From Escherichia coli (GTDB taxonomy: Bacteria; Pseudomonadota; Gammaproteobacteria; Enterobacterales; Enterobacteriaceae), in assembly GCF_003334815.1 (NCBI RefSeq), contig NZ_QOWO01000003.1: DNA of 64,000 nucleotides. The stretch is one strand, 5' to 3'. Below the pieces are notes generated by a model. That model saw nothing but the letters and a program-made list of their open reading frames with translations, had not been told where the DNA came from and ran no database searches. A program made the translations under genes and the position numbers. Shown in pieces: positions 29,673 through 32,468 of this stretch; positions within the stretch are counted from its first letter, which is position 1, and each line of letters opens with the position of its first letter.

Positions 29673-29740
29673 TTTGTCATTAAAACAATAGGTTATATTG
29701 TTTTAAGGTGGATGATTAAAGCATCTGCCAGCCATAAAAA

Positions 29741-29765
29741 AGAAGCCTCCGTTATGGAGGCTTCT
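29741..29765 (-). terminator. Rho-independent terminator of yjcB (hairpin between convergent ssb and yjcB)
   Basis: agaagcctccgttatggaggcttct; on the minus strand followed by ttttttatgg. Confidence 0.65.
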
Positions 29766-29770
29766 ACGTA

Positions 29771-30052
29771 TCAGGTCAAAATCATTGGCCATTGTGGCGG
29801 TGTCTGATTCATCTCTTCTATCATCACCGACTCGATGTTGTGCCAGATAGCGGTGATGTCCGCCATTGTGATGCCAAGCAACCCCATTGCGAACCAACAG
29901 GCGGAAACAACGCCCAGACCGCTGCTGATCACCGCAAGCCCGACATAATCAGACCGACGAAAACGGATGTTGAGTGTGCTGGCCAGAAACATCATTACGG
30001 CACTAAGAAGTTGCCAGCGAAGAAGAACCACGCCAGTGGTGAGGGTAGCCAT
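29771..30052 (-). CDS. yjcB: Small inner-membrane protein YjcB (93 aa)
   Basis: MATLTTGVVLLRWQLLSAVMMFLASTLNIRFRRSDYVGLAVISSGLGVVSACWFAMGLLGITMADITAIWHNIESVMIEEMNQTPPQWPMILT. Confidence 0.8.
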   Translation of the reverse strand: MATLTTGVVLLRWQLLSAVMMFLASTLNIRFRRSDYVGLAVISSGLGVVSACWFAMGLLGITMADITAIWHNIESVMIEEMNQTPPQWPMILT

Positions 30053-30481
30053 CAAACAATTCCTCTGAAAAGAGCCGATGCCCTGGACAGCGCGGCGTTG
30101 TTCACGGGAGGCGTGGTACACTCTGGCTATCGCGGGGCTTGCAGAACACAAAAATGAAACACTCTGTTTGTTTCATTAATTTTGTGAACTATATCACAAT
30201 TGATTGTTTGTTAGCCATATTAGGCCGTGACTTTTATTGCTGTACAGATTATGTGGTTTTTCAGTGGCATTAAGGGCATATCTTCCCGCCGCCTCTGCAT
30301 TCCTGTAGGAAATTAATTTTGAATATCAATGAATTATTTTCATCCAGGTGACGATTAGAAAGGTATCAATTTCAAATCAGGCAAAAGTGCTATTTATACC
30401 GTAAGATTTATCTAAAGACGTCGGTACCCAGGGTTTTCACCTTGCAATGGCCGGGTATAAACAGGCAGGAAATTGATAGCA

Positions 30482-32068
30482 ATGAGTCATCGTGCACGAC
30501 ACCAATTACTGGCGTTGCCGGGCATTATCTTTTTAGTTCTCTTTCCCATCATTCTTTCGCTATGGATTGCCTTCCTTTGGGCAAAATCAGAAGTGAATAA
30601 TCAGCTCCGAACCTTTGCTCAACTGGCACTGGATAAATCCGAGCTGGTCATTCGCCAGGCAGATTTAGTGAGCGATGCAGCTGAACGCTATCAGGGGCAA
30701 GTTTGCACTCCAGCCCATCAAAAGCGAATGTTGAATATTATTCGTGGCTATCTTTATATTAATGAATTGATCTATGCCCGTGATAACCATTTTTTATGCT
30801 CATCGCTGATAGCGCCTGTAAACGGCTATACGATTGCACCGGCCGATTATAAGCGTGAACCTAACGTTTCTATCTATTATTACCGCGATACGCCTTTTTT
30901 CTCTGGCTATAAAATGACCTATATGCAGCGGGGAAATTATGTGGCGGTTATCAACCCTCTCTTCTGGAGTGAAGTGATGTCTGATGACCCGACATTGCAA
31001 TGGGGTGTGTATGATACGGTGACGAAAACCTTTTTCTCGTTAAGCAAAGAGGCCTCGGCAGCAACGTTTTCTCCGCTGATTCATTTGAAGGATTTAACCG
31101 TACAAAGAAATGGCTATTTATATGCGACAGTTTATTCGACAAAACGCCCAATTGCAGCCATTGTTGCGACTTCATATCAACGTCTTATAACCCATTTTTA
31201 TAATCATCTTATTTTTGCGTTGCCCGCCGGTATTTTGGGGAGTCTTGTTCTGCTATTACTCTGGCTACGTATTCGACAAAACTATTTATCTCCCAAACGT
31301 AAATTGCAACGCGCCCTCGAAAAACATCAACTTTGTCTTTATTACCAGCCAATAATCGATATCAAAACAGAAAAATGTATCGGCGCTGAAGCGTTGTTAC
31401 GTTGGCCTGGTGAGCAGGGGCAAATAATGAATCCGGCAGAGTTTATTCCGCTGGCAGAAAAGGAGGGGATGATAGAACAGATAACTGATTATGTTATTGA
31501 TAATGTCTTCCGCGATCTGGGCGATTACCTGGCAACACATGCAGATCGCTATGTTTCTATTAACCTGTCGGCCTCCGATTTTCATACGTCACGGTTGATA
31601 GCGCGAATCAATCAGAAAACAGAGCAATACGCGGTGCGTCCGCAGCAAATTAAATTTGAAGTGACTGAGCATGCATTTCTTGATGTTGACAAAATGACGC
31701 CGATTATTCTGGCTTTCCGCCAGGCAGGTTACGAAGTGGCAATTGATGATTTTGGTATTGGCTACTCTAACTTGCATAACCTTAAATCATTGAATGTCGA
31801 TATTTTGAAAATCGACAAATCGTTTGTTGAAACGCTGACCACCCACAAAACCAGTCATTTGATTGCGGAACACATCATCGAGCTGGCGCACAGCCTGGGG
31901 TTAAAAACGATCGCTGAAGGCGTCGAAACTGAGGAGCAGGTTAACTGGCTGCGCAAACGCGGCGTGCGCTATTGCCAGGGATGGTTCTTTGCGAAGGCGA
32001 TGCCGCCGCAGGTGTTTATGCAATGGATGGAGCAATTACCCGCGCGGGAGTTAACGCGCGGGCAATAA
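30482..32068 (+). CDS. pdeC: c-di-GMP phosphodiesterase PdeC (YjcC; CSS-motif sensor plus EAL domain, 528 aa)
   Basis: [35 protein letters not shown]...; C-terminal EAL-domain motifs ([37 protein letters not shown]). Confidence 0.93.
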
Positions 32069-32450: not shown

Positions 32451-32468
32451 CCTCAAGTTAACTTGAGG
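32451..32468. promoter_or_regulatory. SoxR operator within the soxS promoter (divergent soxS/soxR control region)
   Basis: Perfect palindrome CCTCAAGTTAACTTGAGG; on the soxS strand it sits between TTTACC and TATACT hexamers with a long spacer, as expected for a MerR-type promoter. Confidence 0.85.

What the first reader, a model, noticed from the sequence alone, without database searches (positions are those of the whole stretch)
30153..30177. Perfect 9-bp inverted repeat AATGAAACA-N7-TGTTTCATT about 100 bp upstream of yjcB
An exact 9/9 palindrome with a 7-bp spacer sits in the 430-bp yjcB/pdeC intergenic region. It matches none of the operator consensus sequences I can recall (LexA, Fur, PurR, CRP, FNR, SoxR). 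It could be an operator for an unassigned dimeric regulator or an RNA hairpin in a leader.
Basis: seen in the sequence. Interest (0 to 1): 0.4.

Follow-up and report, generated by a model that had tools for sequence, protein, structure and literature searches.

The report
KdgR-derived palindrome in yjcB leader
The perfect 9-bp palindrome is real and conserved, lies in the first 28 transcribed bases of the stress-induced gene yjcB, and is made of two half-sites of the sugar-acid repressor KdgR set 7 bp apart instead of 1, so it is most likely an old KdgR operator now kept as an mRNA 5' hairpin or an oddly spaced operator.

Summary
In detail: AATGAAACA-N7-TGTTTCATT lies at 30153-30177 and is unique in the window. 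A published yjcB transcription start maps to window 30180 (minus strand), so the palindrome is +4..+28 of the yjcB leader. Upstream of it a perfect CRP box overlaps the -10 element, and a MarA/SoxS marbox lies at -46..-60. Both arms match the KdgR operator half-site (19/20), but every accepted E. coli KdgR box I retrieved has a 1-bp spacer. About 15 other Enterobacteriaceae, including Salmonella, Citrobacter, Enterobacter and Leclercia, carry a canonically spaced KdgR box nested at the same place, built from the "spacer" plus the right arm. The simplest history is a KdgR operator that suffered a 6-bp tandem duplication, after which Escherichia lost the inner copy. Within Escherichia the arms are conserved and the spacer is not (p = 0.003). 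The present mechanism in E. coli is unresolved. A 5' mRNA stem-loop (about 0.4) has suggestive support from a strand asymmetry in folding. A protein operator with non-canonical spacing (about 0.3) cannot be excluded. An attenuator or an upstream ORF is unlikely. Interest is moderate.

The parts
30169..30177 (-). Left arm on the yjcB (minus) strand: 5'-AATGAAACA-3', +4..+12 of the transcript. It contains ATG at +5..+7 and matches the left half-site of the KdgR consensus (TAATGAAACA, 9/10).
30162..30168 (-). 7-bp spacer or loop (AACAGAG on the yjcB strand). Its sequence is not conserved within Escherichia. In most other genera it reads GAAACAn, which is an inner KdgR left half-site plus the central base.
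30153..30161 (-). Right arm on the yjcB strand: 5'-TGTTTCATT-3', +20..+28. With the next base it reads TGTTTCATTT, a 10/10 match to the KdgR right half-site. The core GTTTCA is invariant in 30 of 31 aligned taxa.
30143..30152 (-). T-rich tract TTTTTGTGTT immediately 3' of the right arm on the yjcB strand. It is present in Escherichia only and is not conserved elsewhere.
30180..30180 (-). yjcB primary transcription start site (MG1655 4275169, minus strand).
   Evidence: (PMC12987492), mapped
30188..30193 (-). -10 hexamer TATAGT of the yjcB promoter. It lies inside the spacer of the CRP box.
   Evidence: (PMC3946193 predicts CTAACA-15-TATAGT)
30209..30214 (-). -35 hexamer CTAACA of the yjcB promoter, 15 bp from the -10 element.
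30183..30198 (.). Perfect CRP box TGTGA-N6-TCACA centred at -10.5 of yjcB. This is context rather than part of the palindrome.
30226..30240 (-). Marbox (the published MarA ChIP-seq site gcaataaaagtcacg) at -46..-60 of yjcB. This is context.
29771..30052 (-). yjcB coding sequence (93 aa). Its ATG is at +129 of the transcript.

Best explanation
The palindrome is a conserved cis-element in the initially transcribed region (+4..+28) of yjcB. yjcB encodes a small membrane protein, and three separate studies report that Δcrp raises its mRNA, that MarA and SoxS bind upstream of it, and that it is strongly induced by acid and antibiotic stress. The element descends from a KdgR operator. In most Enterobacteriaceae the right arm still forms a canonically spaced KdgR box (GAAACA-n-TGTTTCATT) with an inner half-site. 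There KdgR probably represses yjcB by sitting just downstream of the start site (inferred). The 7-bp spacer equals that inner half-site core (6 bp) plus the central base (1 bp), which is what a 6-bp tandem duplication (GAAACA|GAAACA) inside a canonical operator would produce (inferred). Escherichia and Pseudescherichia have lost the inner copy but keep the outer arm and the right arm. For E. coli I commit to an RNA mechanism. The two arms pair in the yjcB mRNA to give a 5'-proximal stem-loop with 3 unpaired nucleotides, a 9-bp stem and a 7-nt loop (-6.9 kcal/mol). The left arm looks like a perfect KdgR half-site simply because it must be complementary to a former KdgR half-site. By analogy with ompA-type 5' stem-loops, such a hairpin would shield the 5' end from 5'-end-dependent decay and would sequester the AUG at +5. 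Shown: the position, the half-site identity, the conservation pattern and the nested canonical boxes in relatives. Inferred: the duplication history, KdgR control in relatives, and the function of the RNA hairpin.
For: Position in the transcript: the TSS is at window 30180. It is consistent with the independently predicted promoter CTAACA-15-TATAGT and with a marbox at a typical upstream-activator distance. KdgR ancestry: the arms score 19/20 against the consensus. About 15 other taxa have nested spacer-1 boxes scoring 16-17/20, while the background probability of reaching 15/20 in a 52-nt window is about 0.001. The accepted E. coli boxes at kdgK, kdgT and kduI score 15-19/20 and all have a 1-bp spacer. 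Selection on the arms at 7-bp spacing: across six Escherichia species 1 of 16 arm positions varies, against 15 of 30 spacer and flank positions (Fisher p = 0.003). RNA-specific hints: the outer stem is paired in 86% of cells against 34-44% when the partner is slid, and RNAalifold recovers it without guidance. Imperfect palindromes are G·U on the sense strand in Salmonella, Kosakonia/Phytobacter, K. oryzendophytica, C. koseri, the C. youngae group and Atlantibacter. In about 6 lineages the sense strand folds 1.6-4.6 kcal/mol better than the antisense strand, against smaller opposite differences in about 5. Different palindromes occupy the same position in Atlantibacter (CAAATGC-N7-GCATTTG) and Erwinia (TGACC-N4-GGTCA). 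The stem always starts within about 4 nt of the predicted 5' end. Against canonical KdgR control in E. coli: a strain lacking kdgR overexpressed kdgT, kdgK, kduID, asr and hyi, and yjcB was not listed.
Against: The hairpin is weak (-6.9 kcal/mol, z about -0.8 to -1.3 against shuffles). True compensatory changes are few: 2 pairs and 5 cells, with an RNAalifold covariation term of only -0.28. Pair-breaking transversions in the left arm (ATGTAACA, ATGCAACA; 9 of 31 taxa at one pair) are about as frequent as pair-preserving transitions. Trabulsiella and Pseudenterobacter fold better on the antisense strand. The strand asymmetry is only suggestive; my rough hand estimate of a signed-rank test over about 11 lineages puts it near p 0.06. 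A DNA palindrome bound by a symmetric protein would produce the same arm conservation. There are no mRNA half-life or structure-probing data for yjcB. The TSS comes from one re-analysis of antibiotic-treated cultures.
Confidence: 0.4

Rival explanations
1. It is a DNA operator that works at the 7-bp spacing. KdgR in an alternative binding mode (for example as a tetramer), another IclR-family paralogue, or an unidentified symmetric dimer binds both arms at +4..+28 and blocks RNA polymerase, repressing yjcB.
For: Both arms are as good as the best true KdgR half-sites (19/20). The location just downstream of the TSS is classic for repressors. The arms are conserved while the spacer sequence is free and its length is fixed at 7 in six Escherichia species. 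The right arm is almost invariant while the left arm drifts, as expected if protein contacts matter. Some IclR-family proteins use extra external half-site repeats and bind as tetramers.
Against: All accepted E. coli KdgR boxes I retrieved have a 1-bp spacer. Adding 6 bp rotates one half-site by about 200 degrees relative to the other, which a rigid helix-turn-helix dimer should not tolerate (established knowledge, not tested here). A strain lacking kdgR did not show yjcB among the derepressed genes. The palindromes in Atlantibacter and Erwinia have unrelated sequences at the same place, which no single protein explains. Total length between the outer TG and CA varies from 20 to 22 bp among genera.
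Confidence: 0.3
2. It is a decaying remnant of a KdgR operator with no present function in E. coli. The palindrome survives only because too little time has passed.
For: The inner half-site has clearly decayed in Escherichia, where the canonical-spacing score falls to 14-15/20 and all of that comes from the right arm. There is no KdgR effect on yjcB in the one transcriptome available. Three taxa (Enterobacter kpr6, Enterobacter P0062, Trabulsiella) have lost the pairing altogether.
Against: Within Escherichia the spacer and flanks have diverged at half of their positions while 15 of the 16 arm positions are fixed (p = 0.003). The outer arm is retained in more than 25 taxa spanning many genera. 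5,398 of 5,426 E. coli genomes differ by at most one base over 35 bp, and in all 3 one-mismatch genomes I read that change is in the outermost pair.
Confidence: 0.12
3. It is an intrinsic terminator or attenuator in the leader. The hairpin plus the following UUUUUGUGUU stops or pauses RNA polymerase around +35..+40, giving conditional read-through into yjcB.
For: In Escherichia a hairpin is immediately followed by a U-rich tract on the sense strand. Ribosome-footprint induction at pH 4.4 (log2 7.7) exceeds mRNA induction (log2 5.9), which hints at leader-level control.
Against: The stem has only 2 G-C pairs in 9 and was not flagged by the terminator scan. The U-tract is not conserved outside Escherichia. 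Term-seq supplementary tables list only the ssb terminator 3' end near yjcB and none in the leader, with the caveat that yjcB is poorly expressed in those conditions.
Confidence: 0.05
4. The conserved feature is a near-leaderless upstream ORF. The ATG in the left arm (+5..+7) starts a short peptide (24 codons in K-12, window 30175 to 30101) whose translation controls yjcB.
For: A start-type codon (ATG, GTG or TTG) sits at this offset in all 27 Enterobacteriaceae-type loci examined, including those without the GAAACA arms. Four Escherichia lineages keep a 24-codon frame.
Against: ORF length ranges from 1 codon (ATG-TAA in C. youngae, GTG-TAA in Yokenella) through 2 (Salmonella) and 4 (E. albertii) to more than 40. 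The peptide sequence is not conserved, there is no Shine-Dalgarno sequence, and the frame relative to yjcB varies.
Confidence: 0.05

Closest known systems
KdgR operator (KdgR box of the IclR-family repressor of pectin, hexuronate and KDG catabolism; consensus AAATGAAACAnTGTTTCATTT)
   Same: Both arms are near-perfect KdgR half-sites (10/10 and 9/10). The element lies next to a CRP site and just downstream of a transcription start, as repressor operators do. Orthologous yjcB leaders in Salmonella, Citrobacter, Enterobacter, Leclercia, Kosakonia and Yokenella contain a canonically spaced box scoring 16-17/20, within the range of the accepted E. coli boxes (15-19/20).
   Different: In Escherichia the half-sites are 7 bp apart rather than 1 bp, and the inner half-site needed for the canonical geometry has decayed. 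yjcB has no known link to KDG metabolism and was not reported as derepressed in a strain lacking kdgR.
5'-terminal stabilising stem-loops of enterobacterial mRNAs (ompA 5' UTR hp1 type; recalled from the literature, not tested here)
   Same: It is a stem-loop beginning within 3-4 nt of the mapped 5' end of a membrane-protein mRNA. The structure, rather than the sequence, recurs at this position in distant genera.
   Different: The stem is A-U rich and only marginally more stable than shuffled sequence. No half-life data exist. The sequence of the arms is dictated by a transcription-factor half-site.
IclR-family operators with an extra external direct half-site repeat (PcaU, PobR, HmgR)
   Same: Most non-Escherichia taxa show three half-sites: a palindrome plus an additional direct copy of the left half-site on its outer side.
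   Different: The extra copy abuts the palindrome (6-7 bp offset) rather than lying about one helical turn away. No binding data exist for KdgR.
Intrinsic (Rho-independent) terminators and leader attenuators
   Same: In Escherichia a hairpin is followed directly by a U-rich tract on the sense strand.
   Different: The stem is G-C poor, the U-tract is not conserved, and no 3' end was mapped there.

Membership tests
KdgR operator (KdgR box) | Two inverted half-sites matching AAATGAAACA / TGTTTCATTT | tested here: met
   The score is 19/20, using the consensus quoted in PMC5559549.
KdgR operator (KdgR box) | Half-sites separated by a single central base pair (21-bp box) | tested here: not met
   The spacer is 7 bp in E. 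coli. The boxes upstream of kdgK, kdgT and kduI (two) all have a 1-bp spacer. The best canonical-spacing score at yjcB in Escherichia is 14-15/20 and comes almost entirely from one half-site. The feature is met by the nested box in about 15 other taxa.
KdgR operator (KdgR box) | Position overlapping or just downstream of the promoter of the regulated gene | tested here: met
   The element lies at +4..+28 relative to the mapped yjcB TSS.
KdgR operator (KdgR box) | Conservation of the site upstream of orthologous genes (the comparative-genomics criterion) | tested here: met
   The arms or the nested box are present in more than 25 taxa across at least 10 genera.
KdgR operator (KdgR box) | KdgR occupancy, or derepression in a kdgR mutant or with KDG | not testable with these tools
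   The only indirect datum is that a strain lacking kdgR overexpressed kdgT, kdgK, kduID, asr and hyi, with yjcB not listed. No ChIP, SELEX or DAP data for KdgR were found in the searchable literature.
5'-terminal mRNA stem-loop | The element lies inside the transcript with no more than about 4 unpaired nucleotides at the 5' end | tested here: met
   The TSS is at 30180 and the stem starts at +4.
5'-terminal mRNA stem-loop | Thermodynamically significant stem | tested here: inconclusive
   The energy is -6.9 kcal/mol with z = -0.8. Across taxa z ranges from -0.4 to -3.2.
5'-terminal mRNA stem-loop | Covariation, or strand-specific G·U tolerance, supporting pairing in RNA | tested here: inconclusive
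   86% of cells are paired, but only 2 pairs (5 cells) show double changes, and 9 and 10 sequences break pairs 27-44 and 31-40. The RNAalifold covariation term is -0.28. The sense strand folds better than the antisense strand in about 6 lineages against about 5 with smaller opposite effects.
5'-terminal mRNA stem-loop | Effect on mRNA half-life or on RppH and RNase E sensitivity | not testable with these tools
   No data were found.
Intrinsic terminator / attenuator | G+C-rich stem followed by a U-tract | tested here: not met
   The stem has 2 G-C pairs in 9 and was not called by the scan. The U-tract is present only in Escherichia.
Intrinsic terminator / attenuator | Mapped RNA 3' ends just after the hairpin | tested here: not met
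   The Term-seq supplement lists only the ssb terminator 3' ends at 4274757/8 on the plus strand near yjcB. The caveat is low yjcB expression in those conditions.
CRP site | TGTGA-N6-TCACA | tested here: not met
   The palindrome itself does not match. A perfect CRP box lies 5 bp away at 30183-30198.
Upstream ORF / leader peptide | Conserved start codon and conserved reading frame or peptide | tested here: not met
   The start-type codon is conserved, but ORF length ranges from 1 to more than 40 codons and the peptide is not conserved.
Rfam RNA families | Match to a curated covariance model | tested here: not met
   No hit covers 30140-30180 at E of 1 or better.

The most novel reading that the evidence does not exclude
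KdgR, or another IclR-family protein of E. coli, binds a palindrome whose half-sites are 7 bp apart. This would be a second operator geometry, created by a 6-bp tandem duplication inside a canonical KdgR box. In Escherichia it would tie the acid-, oxidant- and antibiotic-induced membrane protein YjcB to hexuronate/KDG availability. The same sequence would also act as a 5' hairpin in the mRNA, making it a dual-coded DNA and RNA element.
Probability: 0.15. Interest if true: 0.55.

Novelty: new variant of a known kind. Interest (0 to 1): 0.38.

Why it matters
yjcB is an uncharacterised small membrane protein that is among the most strongly induced E. coli genes at pH 4.4, and its transcription start has one of the strongest signals reported across antibiotic treatments. 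Its control region turns out to be densely packed. A CRP box overlaps the -10 element and, judging from the Δcrp result, acts as a repressor site. A MarA/SoxS marbox lies upstream, and the palindrome lies immediately downstream of the start site. Recognising the arms as KdgR half-sites has two consequences. It nominates yjcB as an apparently unrecognised candidate KdgR-regulon member in Salmonella, Citrobacter, Enterobacter and their relatives, which gives a first functional hint linking it to sugar-acid catabolism in the gut or plant niche. It also provides a clean natural example of operator evolution, in which a tandem duplication was followed by loss of the inner half-site and possible re-use of the remaining arms as an RNA stem. 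The question can be settled with a few simple experiments.

Tried and rejected
- **Rfam:** scanning 29700-30600 at E of 1 or better gave nothing over the element.
- **Promoter and terminator scan:** it did not flag the palindrome. It found only the ssb/yjcB bidirectional terminator.
- **Attenuator idea:** rejected as the leading explanation, because the stem is G-C poor, the U-tract is not conserved and there is no Term-seq 3' end.
- **Upstream-ORF idea:** rejected, because the ORF is not conserved in length or sequence.
- **CRP-activated class II promoter using TTCATT in the right arm as its -10:** rejected on spacing, since CRP would sit at about -44.5 (read directly).
- **Other consensus sequences recalled from memory:** I compared the arms with Cra, TyrR, NsrR, PhoP, OmpR, NagC/Mlc and LysR-type T-N11-A motifs. 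None fitted in both half-site and spacing. These comparisons are from memory only and are not formal tests.
- **Metagenome scan:** ATGAAACA-N{0,12}-TGTTTCAT was meant to show whether the 7-bp spacing recurs at other loci. The capped sample of 120 stretches had a flat spacer distribution (spacer 1: 7 hits; spacer 7: 9 hits, 5 of them yjcB loci), so it was dominated by chance matches and was uninformative.
- **Primary KdgR-regulon paper:** Rodionov et al. 2004 is not held in the library, so I could not check whether yjcB was ever listed there.
- **KdgR binding data:** literature searches for genome-wide KdgR binding data in E. coli found none.
- **Rarest E. coli variants:** I did not enumerate the 28 genomes with two or more differences in the 35-bp element.

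Full report
**1. The observation.** The sequence at 30153-30177 is AATGAAACA-CTCTGTT-TGTTTCATT, a perfect 9/9 inverted repeat with a 7-bp spacer. It is the only match in the window even with two mismatches allowed, and none is expected by chance. Perfect inverted repeats of at least 9 bp with spacers of 12 bp or less are about ten times more frequent in this window than in block shuffles: 39 nine-mer hits (22 distinct palindromes) against a mean of 4.0. Most such palindromes here are therefore functional elements. The window is identical to E. coli K-12 MG1655 in this region, with window coordinate = MG1655 coordinate minus 4,244,989. yjcB runs on the minus strand from 30052 to 29771 and pdeC starts at 30482. 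The palindrome lies in their 429-bp intergenic region, with its nearer edge 101 bp from the yjcB ATG. The region is present in all 5,426 complete E. coli genomes searched.

**2. Where it sits relative to transcription signals.**
- A re-analysis of dRNA-seq data lists a primary yjcB TSS at MG1655 4275169 on the minus strand, among the strongest TSS signals across all the antibiotic treatments tested. This maps to window 30180.
- Reading the minus strand upstream of that base gives CTAACA, then 15 bp, then TATAGT, then 7 nt, then the start base A. This is the same promoter that Shimada et al. inferred from RNA polymerase SELEX.
- The -10 hexamer lies inside a perfect CRP box, TGTGATATAGTTCACA (30198-30183, centred at -10.5). 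PhyloScan ranked yjcB among its top CRP predictions, and Δcrp raises yjcB mRNA in RNA-seq and qPCR. CRP most likely represses the gene by occluding the promoter.
- The published MarA ChIP-seq site gcaataaaagtcacg is at 30240-30226, which is -60..-46. The same paper counts yjcB among the SoxS ChIP-exo targets.
- On this strand the palindrome therefore occupies +4..+28 of a 128-nt leader, and it is followed by TTTTTGTGTT.
- yjcB is strongly stress-induced: log2 +5.9 in mRNA and +7.7 in ribosome footprints at pH 4.4.
- The predicted pdeC promoter is about 280 bp away, so the element belongs to yjcB.

**3. What the arms resemble.** The KdgR consensus quoted from Rodionov et al. is AAATGAAACAnTGTTTCATTT. 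The yjcB element reads AAATGAAACA-ctctgtt-TGTTTCATTA, which is 19/20 over the half-sites but with a 7-bp spacer. I retrieved the regions of the genes that the literature names as KdgR-repressed from MG1655 and scanned them, together with the window, at all spacings from 0 to 12. The best sites upstream of kdgK (15/20), kdgT (17/20) and kduI (19/20 and 17/20) all have a 1-bp spacer. The yjcB half-sites are thus as good as the best true operator, but in a geometry that no accepted site uses. A 9-mer palindrome arm matching a known half-site exactly is very unlikely by chance, so a historical link to KdgR is the natural reading.

**4. Conservation.**
- I collected 37 YjcB loci from reference genomes, eight more through YjcB homologues and two from a metagenome scan.
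- The CRP box is conserved out to Erwinia and Serratia. In the Enterobacteriaceae-type loci its 6-bp spacer is almost invariably TATAGT, which fits a double role as the -10 element.
- Downstream of it, 31 taxa align cleanly. The right arm core GTTTCA is invariant in 30 of 31, and the left arm varies (ATGAAACA, ATGTAACA, ATGCAACA, TTGAGACA, GTGAAATG and others).
- In Salmonella, C. koseri, C. rodentium, C. amalonaticus, C. sedlakii, C. freundii, C. youngae, Leclercia, two Enterobacter lineages, Kosakonia S29, Yokenella and others, the "spacer" reads GAAACAn. Together with the right arm it forms a canonically spaced KdgR box scoring 16-17/20. The chance that a 52-nt window reaches 15/20 is about 0.001. 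By the usual comparative-genomics criterion, yjcB is a candidate KdgR-regulon gene in those genera.
- The arrangement ATGAAACA|GAAACA|n|TGTTTCAT, with its 6-bp direct repeat, is what a 6-bp tandem duplication inside a canonical operator would give. It also explains why the outer spacer is exactly 7 bp (6 + 1). This history is an inference.
- Escherichia (six species or clades) and Pseudescherichia have lost the inner half-site: the canonical-spacing score falls to 14-15/20, all of it from the right arm. They retain the outer pair at 18-19/20.
- Within Escherichia, 1 of 16 core arm positions varies against 15 of 30 spacer and flanking positions (Fisher p = 0.003). Something still selects for the two arms at this spacing.
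- Within E. coli, 3,873 of 5,426 genomes are identical over 35 bp, and 1,525 carry one change. In all three genomes sampled that change is the outermost arm base.

**5. RNA or DNA?** As RNA the element folds into a 9-bp stem with a 7-nt loop, starting after three unpaired nucleotides. The energy is -6.9 kcal/mol, which is not exceptional (z = -0.8). There is no Rfam match.
- *Pair counts:* on the 31-taxon alignment the outer stem is paired in 86% of cells against 34-44% with slid partners. Only two pairs (five cells) show changes on both sides, and 9 and 10 sequences break pairs 27-44 and 31-40. RNAalifold recovers the stem without guidance, with a small covariation term (-0.28).
- *In favour of RNA:* imperfect palindromes are G·U on the yjcB sense strand in Salmonella, Phytobacter/Kosakonia, K. 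oryzendophytica, C. koseri, the C. youngae group and Atlantibacter. Using the same procedure on both strands, the sense strand folds better by 1.6-4.6 kcal/mol in about six lineages, while the opposite differences are mostly small.
- *Also in favour of RNA:* Atlantibacter has an unrelated palindrome at the same position (CAAATGC-N7-GCATTTG), and Erwinia has a short one (TGACC-N4-GGTCA).
- *Against RNA:* the left arm shows uncompensated transversions in Leclercia, C. youngae and Pseudenterobacter, and Trabulsiella and Pseudenterobacter fold better on the antisense strand.
- *Balance:* the RNA-specific signal is suggestive rather than decisive. My rough hand estimate of a signed-rank test over about 11 lineages puts it near p 0.06.
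- *A point that reconciles the two readings:* if the right arm is an inherited KdgR half-site and selection acts on pairing, the left arm must look like a perfect KdgR left half-site, because the KdgR box is itself palindromic. The striking 19/20 match therefore does not require KdgR to bind at the 7-bp spacing.

**6. Mechanism and ranking.**
- *Best explanation (0.4):* an ancestral KdgR operator in the yjcB leader is still canonical in most relatives. In Escherichia its outer arm and right arm are maintained as a 5'-proximal mRNA stem-loop. By analogy with ompA-type 5' hairpins (recalled knowledge, not tested), this would protect the 5' end and mask the AUG at +5.
- *Main rival (0.3):* the two arms are bound at this spacing by KdgR in another mode, by a paralogue, or by an unknown dimer, acting as a roadblock at +4..+28. 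Against it are the fixed 1-bp spacing of all accepted sites, the helical phase shift that 6 extra bp impose, and the absence of yjcB from the genes derepressed when kdgR is deleted. yjcB expression may have been too low in that condition for this to be informative.
- *Non-functional remnant (0.12):* disfavoured by the conservation test.
- *Attenuator (0.05):* disfavoured by the A-U-rich stem, the non-conserved U-tract and the lack of Term-seq 3' ends.
- *Upstream ORF (0.05):* a start-type codon is always present at +5, but the ORF ranges from 1 to more than 40 codons.

**7. Comparison with known systems and novelty.** The element fails one defining feature of a KdgR box, the spacing, and meets the others that could be tested, so I do not file the E. 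coli site as a KdgR operator. I describe it as a KdgR-operator derivative. The nested boxes in other genera do pass the sequence tests and would be new regulon members, pending binding data. I found no paper in the searchable library that links yjcB and KdgR functionally. The primary regulon paper could not be read. I rate the finding as a new variant of a known kind, of moderate interest. It is not surprising in principle, but it gives a first functional lead for a strongly stress-induced orphan gene, and it is a tidy case of operator remodelling that a few experiments could resolve.

Noticed in passing
window 30183-30198: A perfect CRP box, TGTGAACTATATCACA, lies 5 bp from the palindrome. 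It overlaps the yjcB -10 element (TATAGT on the minus strand) and is centred at -10.5. Its half-sites are conserved out to Erwinia and Serratia, and its 6-bp spacer is nearly invariant in the Enterobacteriaceae-type loci. Δcrp raises yjcB mRNA in a published study, which fits repression by promoter occlusion.
   Followed up: yes
window 30226-30240: The published MarA ChIP-seq site (gcaataaaagtcacg on the yjcB strand) lies at -46..-60 of the mapped yjcB TSS. yjcB is also cited as a SoxS ChIP-exo target. The spacing supports the TSS assignment.
   Followed up: partly
window 30173-30175 (ATG, minus strand); ORF 30175 to 30101: A start-type codon (ATG, GTG or TTG) sits at about +5 of the predicted transcript in all 27 Enterobacteriaceae-type loci examined. 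It always lies inside the left arm, with CAT in the right arm. In K-12 it opens a 24-codon ORF (MKQTECFIFVFCKPRDSQSVPRLP). The ORF is 1-4 codons long in C. youngae, Salmonella and E. albertii, so no peptide is conserved. Why the NTG itself is conserved remains unexplained.
   Followed up: partly
window 30121-30131 (GATAGCCAGAG on the yjcB strand, about +50..+60): A leader motif, GATAGCCAGAG, is conserved in Escherichia, Citrobacter, Salmonella, Intestinirhabdus and, partly, in Leclercia and Trabulsiella, while the surrounding leader diverges. Its function is unknown.
   Followed up: no
L024, L026-L028 (Atlantibacter and a contig labelled 'C. freundii M21') about 2870-2895; L029, L032, L035 (Erwinia): Unrelated palindromes occupy the same position just after the CRP box. 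Atlantibacter has CA(A/G)ATGC-N7-GCATTTG, and Erwinia has ATGAC(C/T)-N4-6-GGTCA. Their mismatches are G·U on the sense strand.
   Followed up: partly
L002 (NZ_JAUFQN010000013.1, labelled Flavobacterium paronense): A 9.5-kb contig in this Flavobacterium assembly encodes a YjcB 100% identical to E. coli K-12, and its 260 bp upstream of yjcB are also identical to K-12. This is almost certainly E. coli contamination of the assembly.
   Followed up: no
H1 (NZ_CP046716.1, strain T16R), region matching window 29700-30600: The match is split into two pieces by an IS1 insertion annotated between or next to yjcB and pdeC. I did not determine its position relative to the palindrome.
   Followed up: no
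L043 (NZ_CP015912.1, swine isolate), equivalent to window 30189: A C-to-A change in the CRP-box spacer converts the yjcB -10 element from TATAGT to TATATT, which is closer to consensus. It may be a promoter-up variant.
   Followed up: no
window 29741-29765: A G+C-rich hairpin with T-runs on both sides lies between the convergent genes ssb and yjcB and looks like a bidirectional terminator. Term-seq 3' ends at MG1655 4274757/8 on the plus strand (window 29768/9) confirm the ssb side.
   Followed up: partly
L045 (Salmonella), L046 (C. koseri), L047 (C. rodentium), downstream of yjcB: The gene after yjcB differs between species: an ABC transporter in Salmonella (probably the SPI-4 end), an ECF sigma factor in C. 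koseri, a ferredoxin-type protein in C. rodentium, and ssb in E. coli, Enterobacter and Trabulsiella. This fits the yjcB-ssb junction being an integration hotspot, as reported for an E. coli defence island (PMC11728103).
   Followed up: no
L039 14188-14420 (MG1655 pdeH-kdgK intergenic region): The accepted KdgR-regulated gene kdgK is divergently paired with a c-di-GMP phosphodiesterase gene (pdeH), just as yjcB is paired with pdeC. This may be coincidence.
   Followed up: no
window 32451-32468: An 18-bp perfect palindrome, CCTCAAGTTAACTTGAGG, lies between soxS and soxR. From memory this is the known SoxR binding site in the soxS promoter.
   Followed up: no
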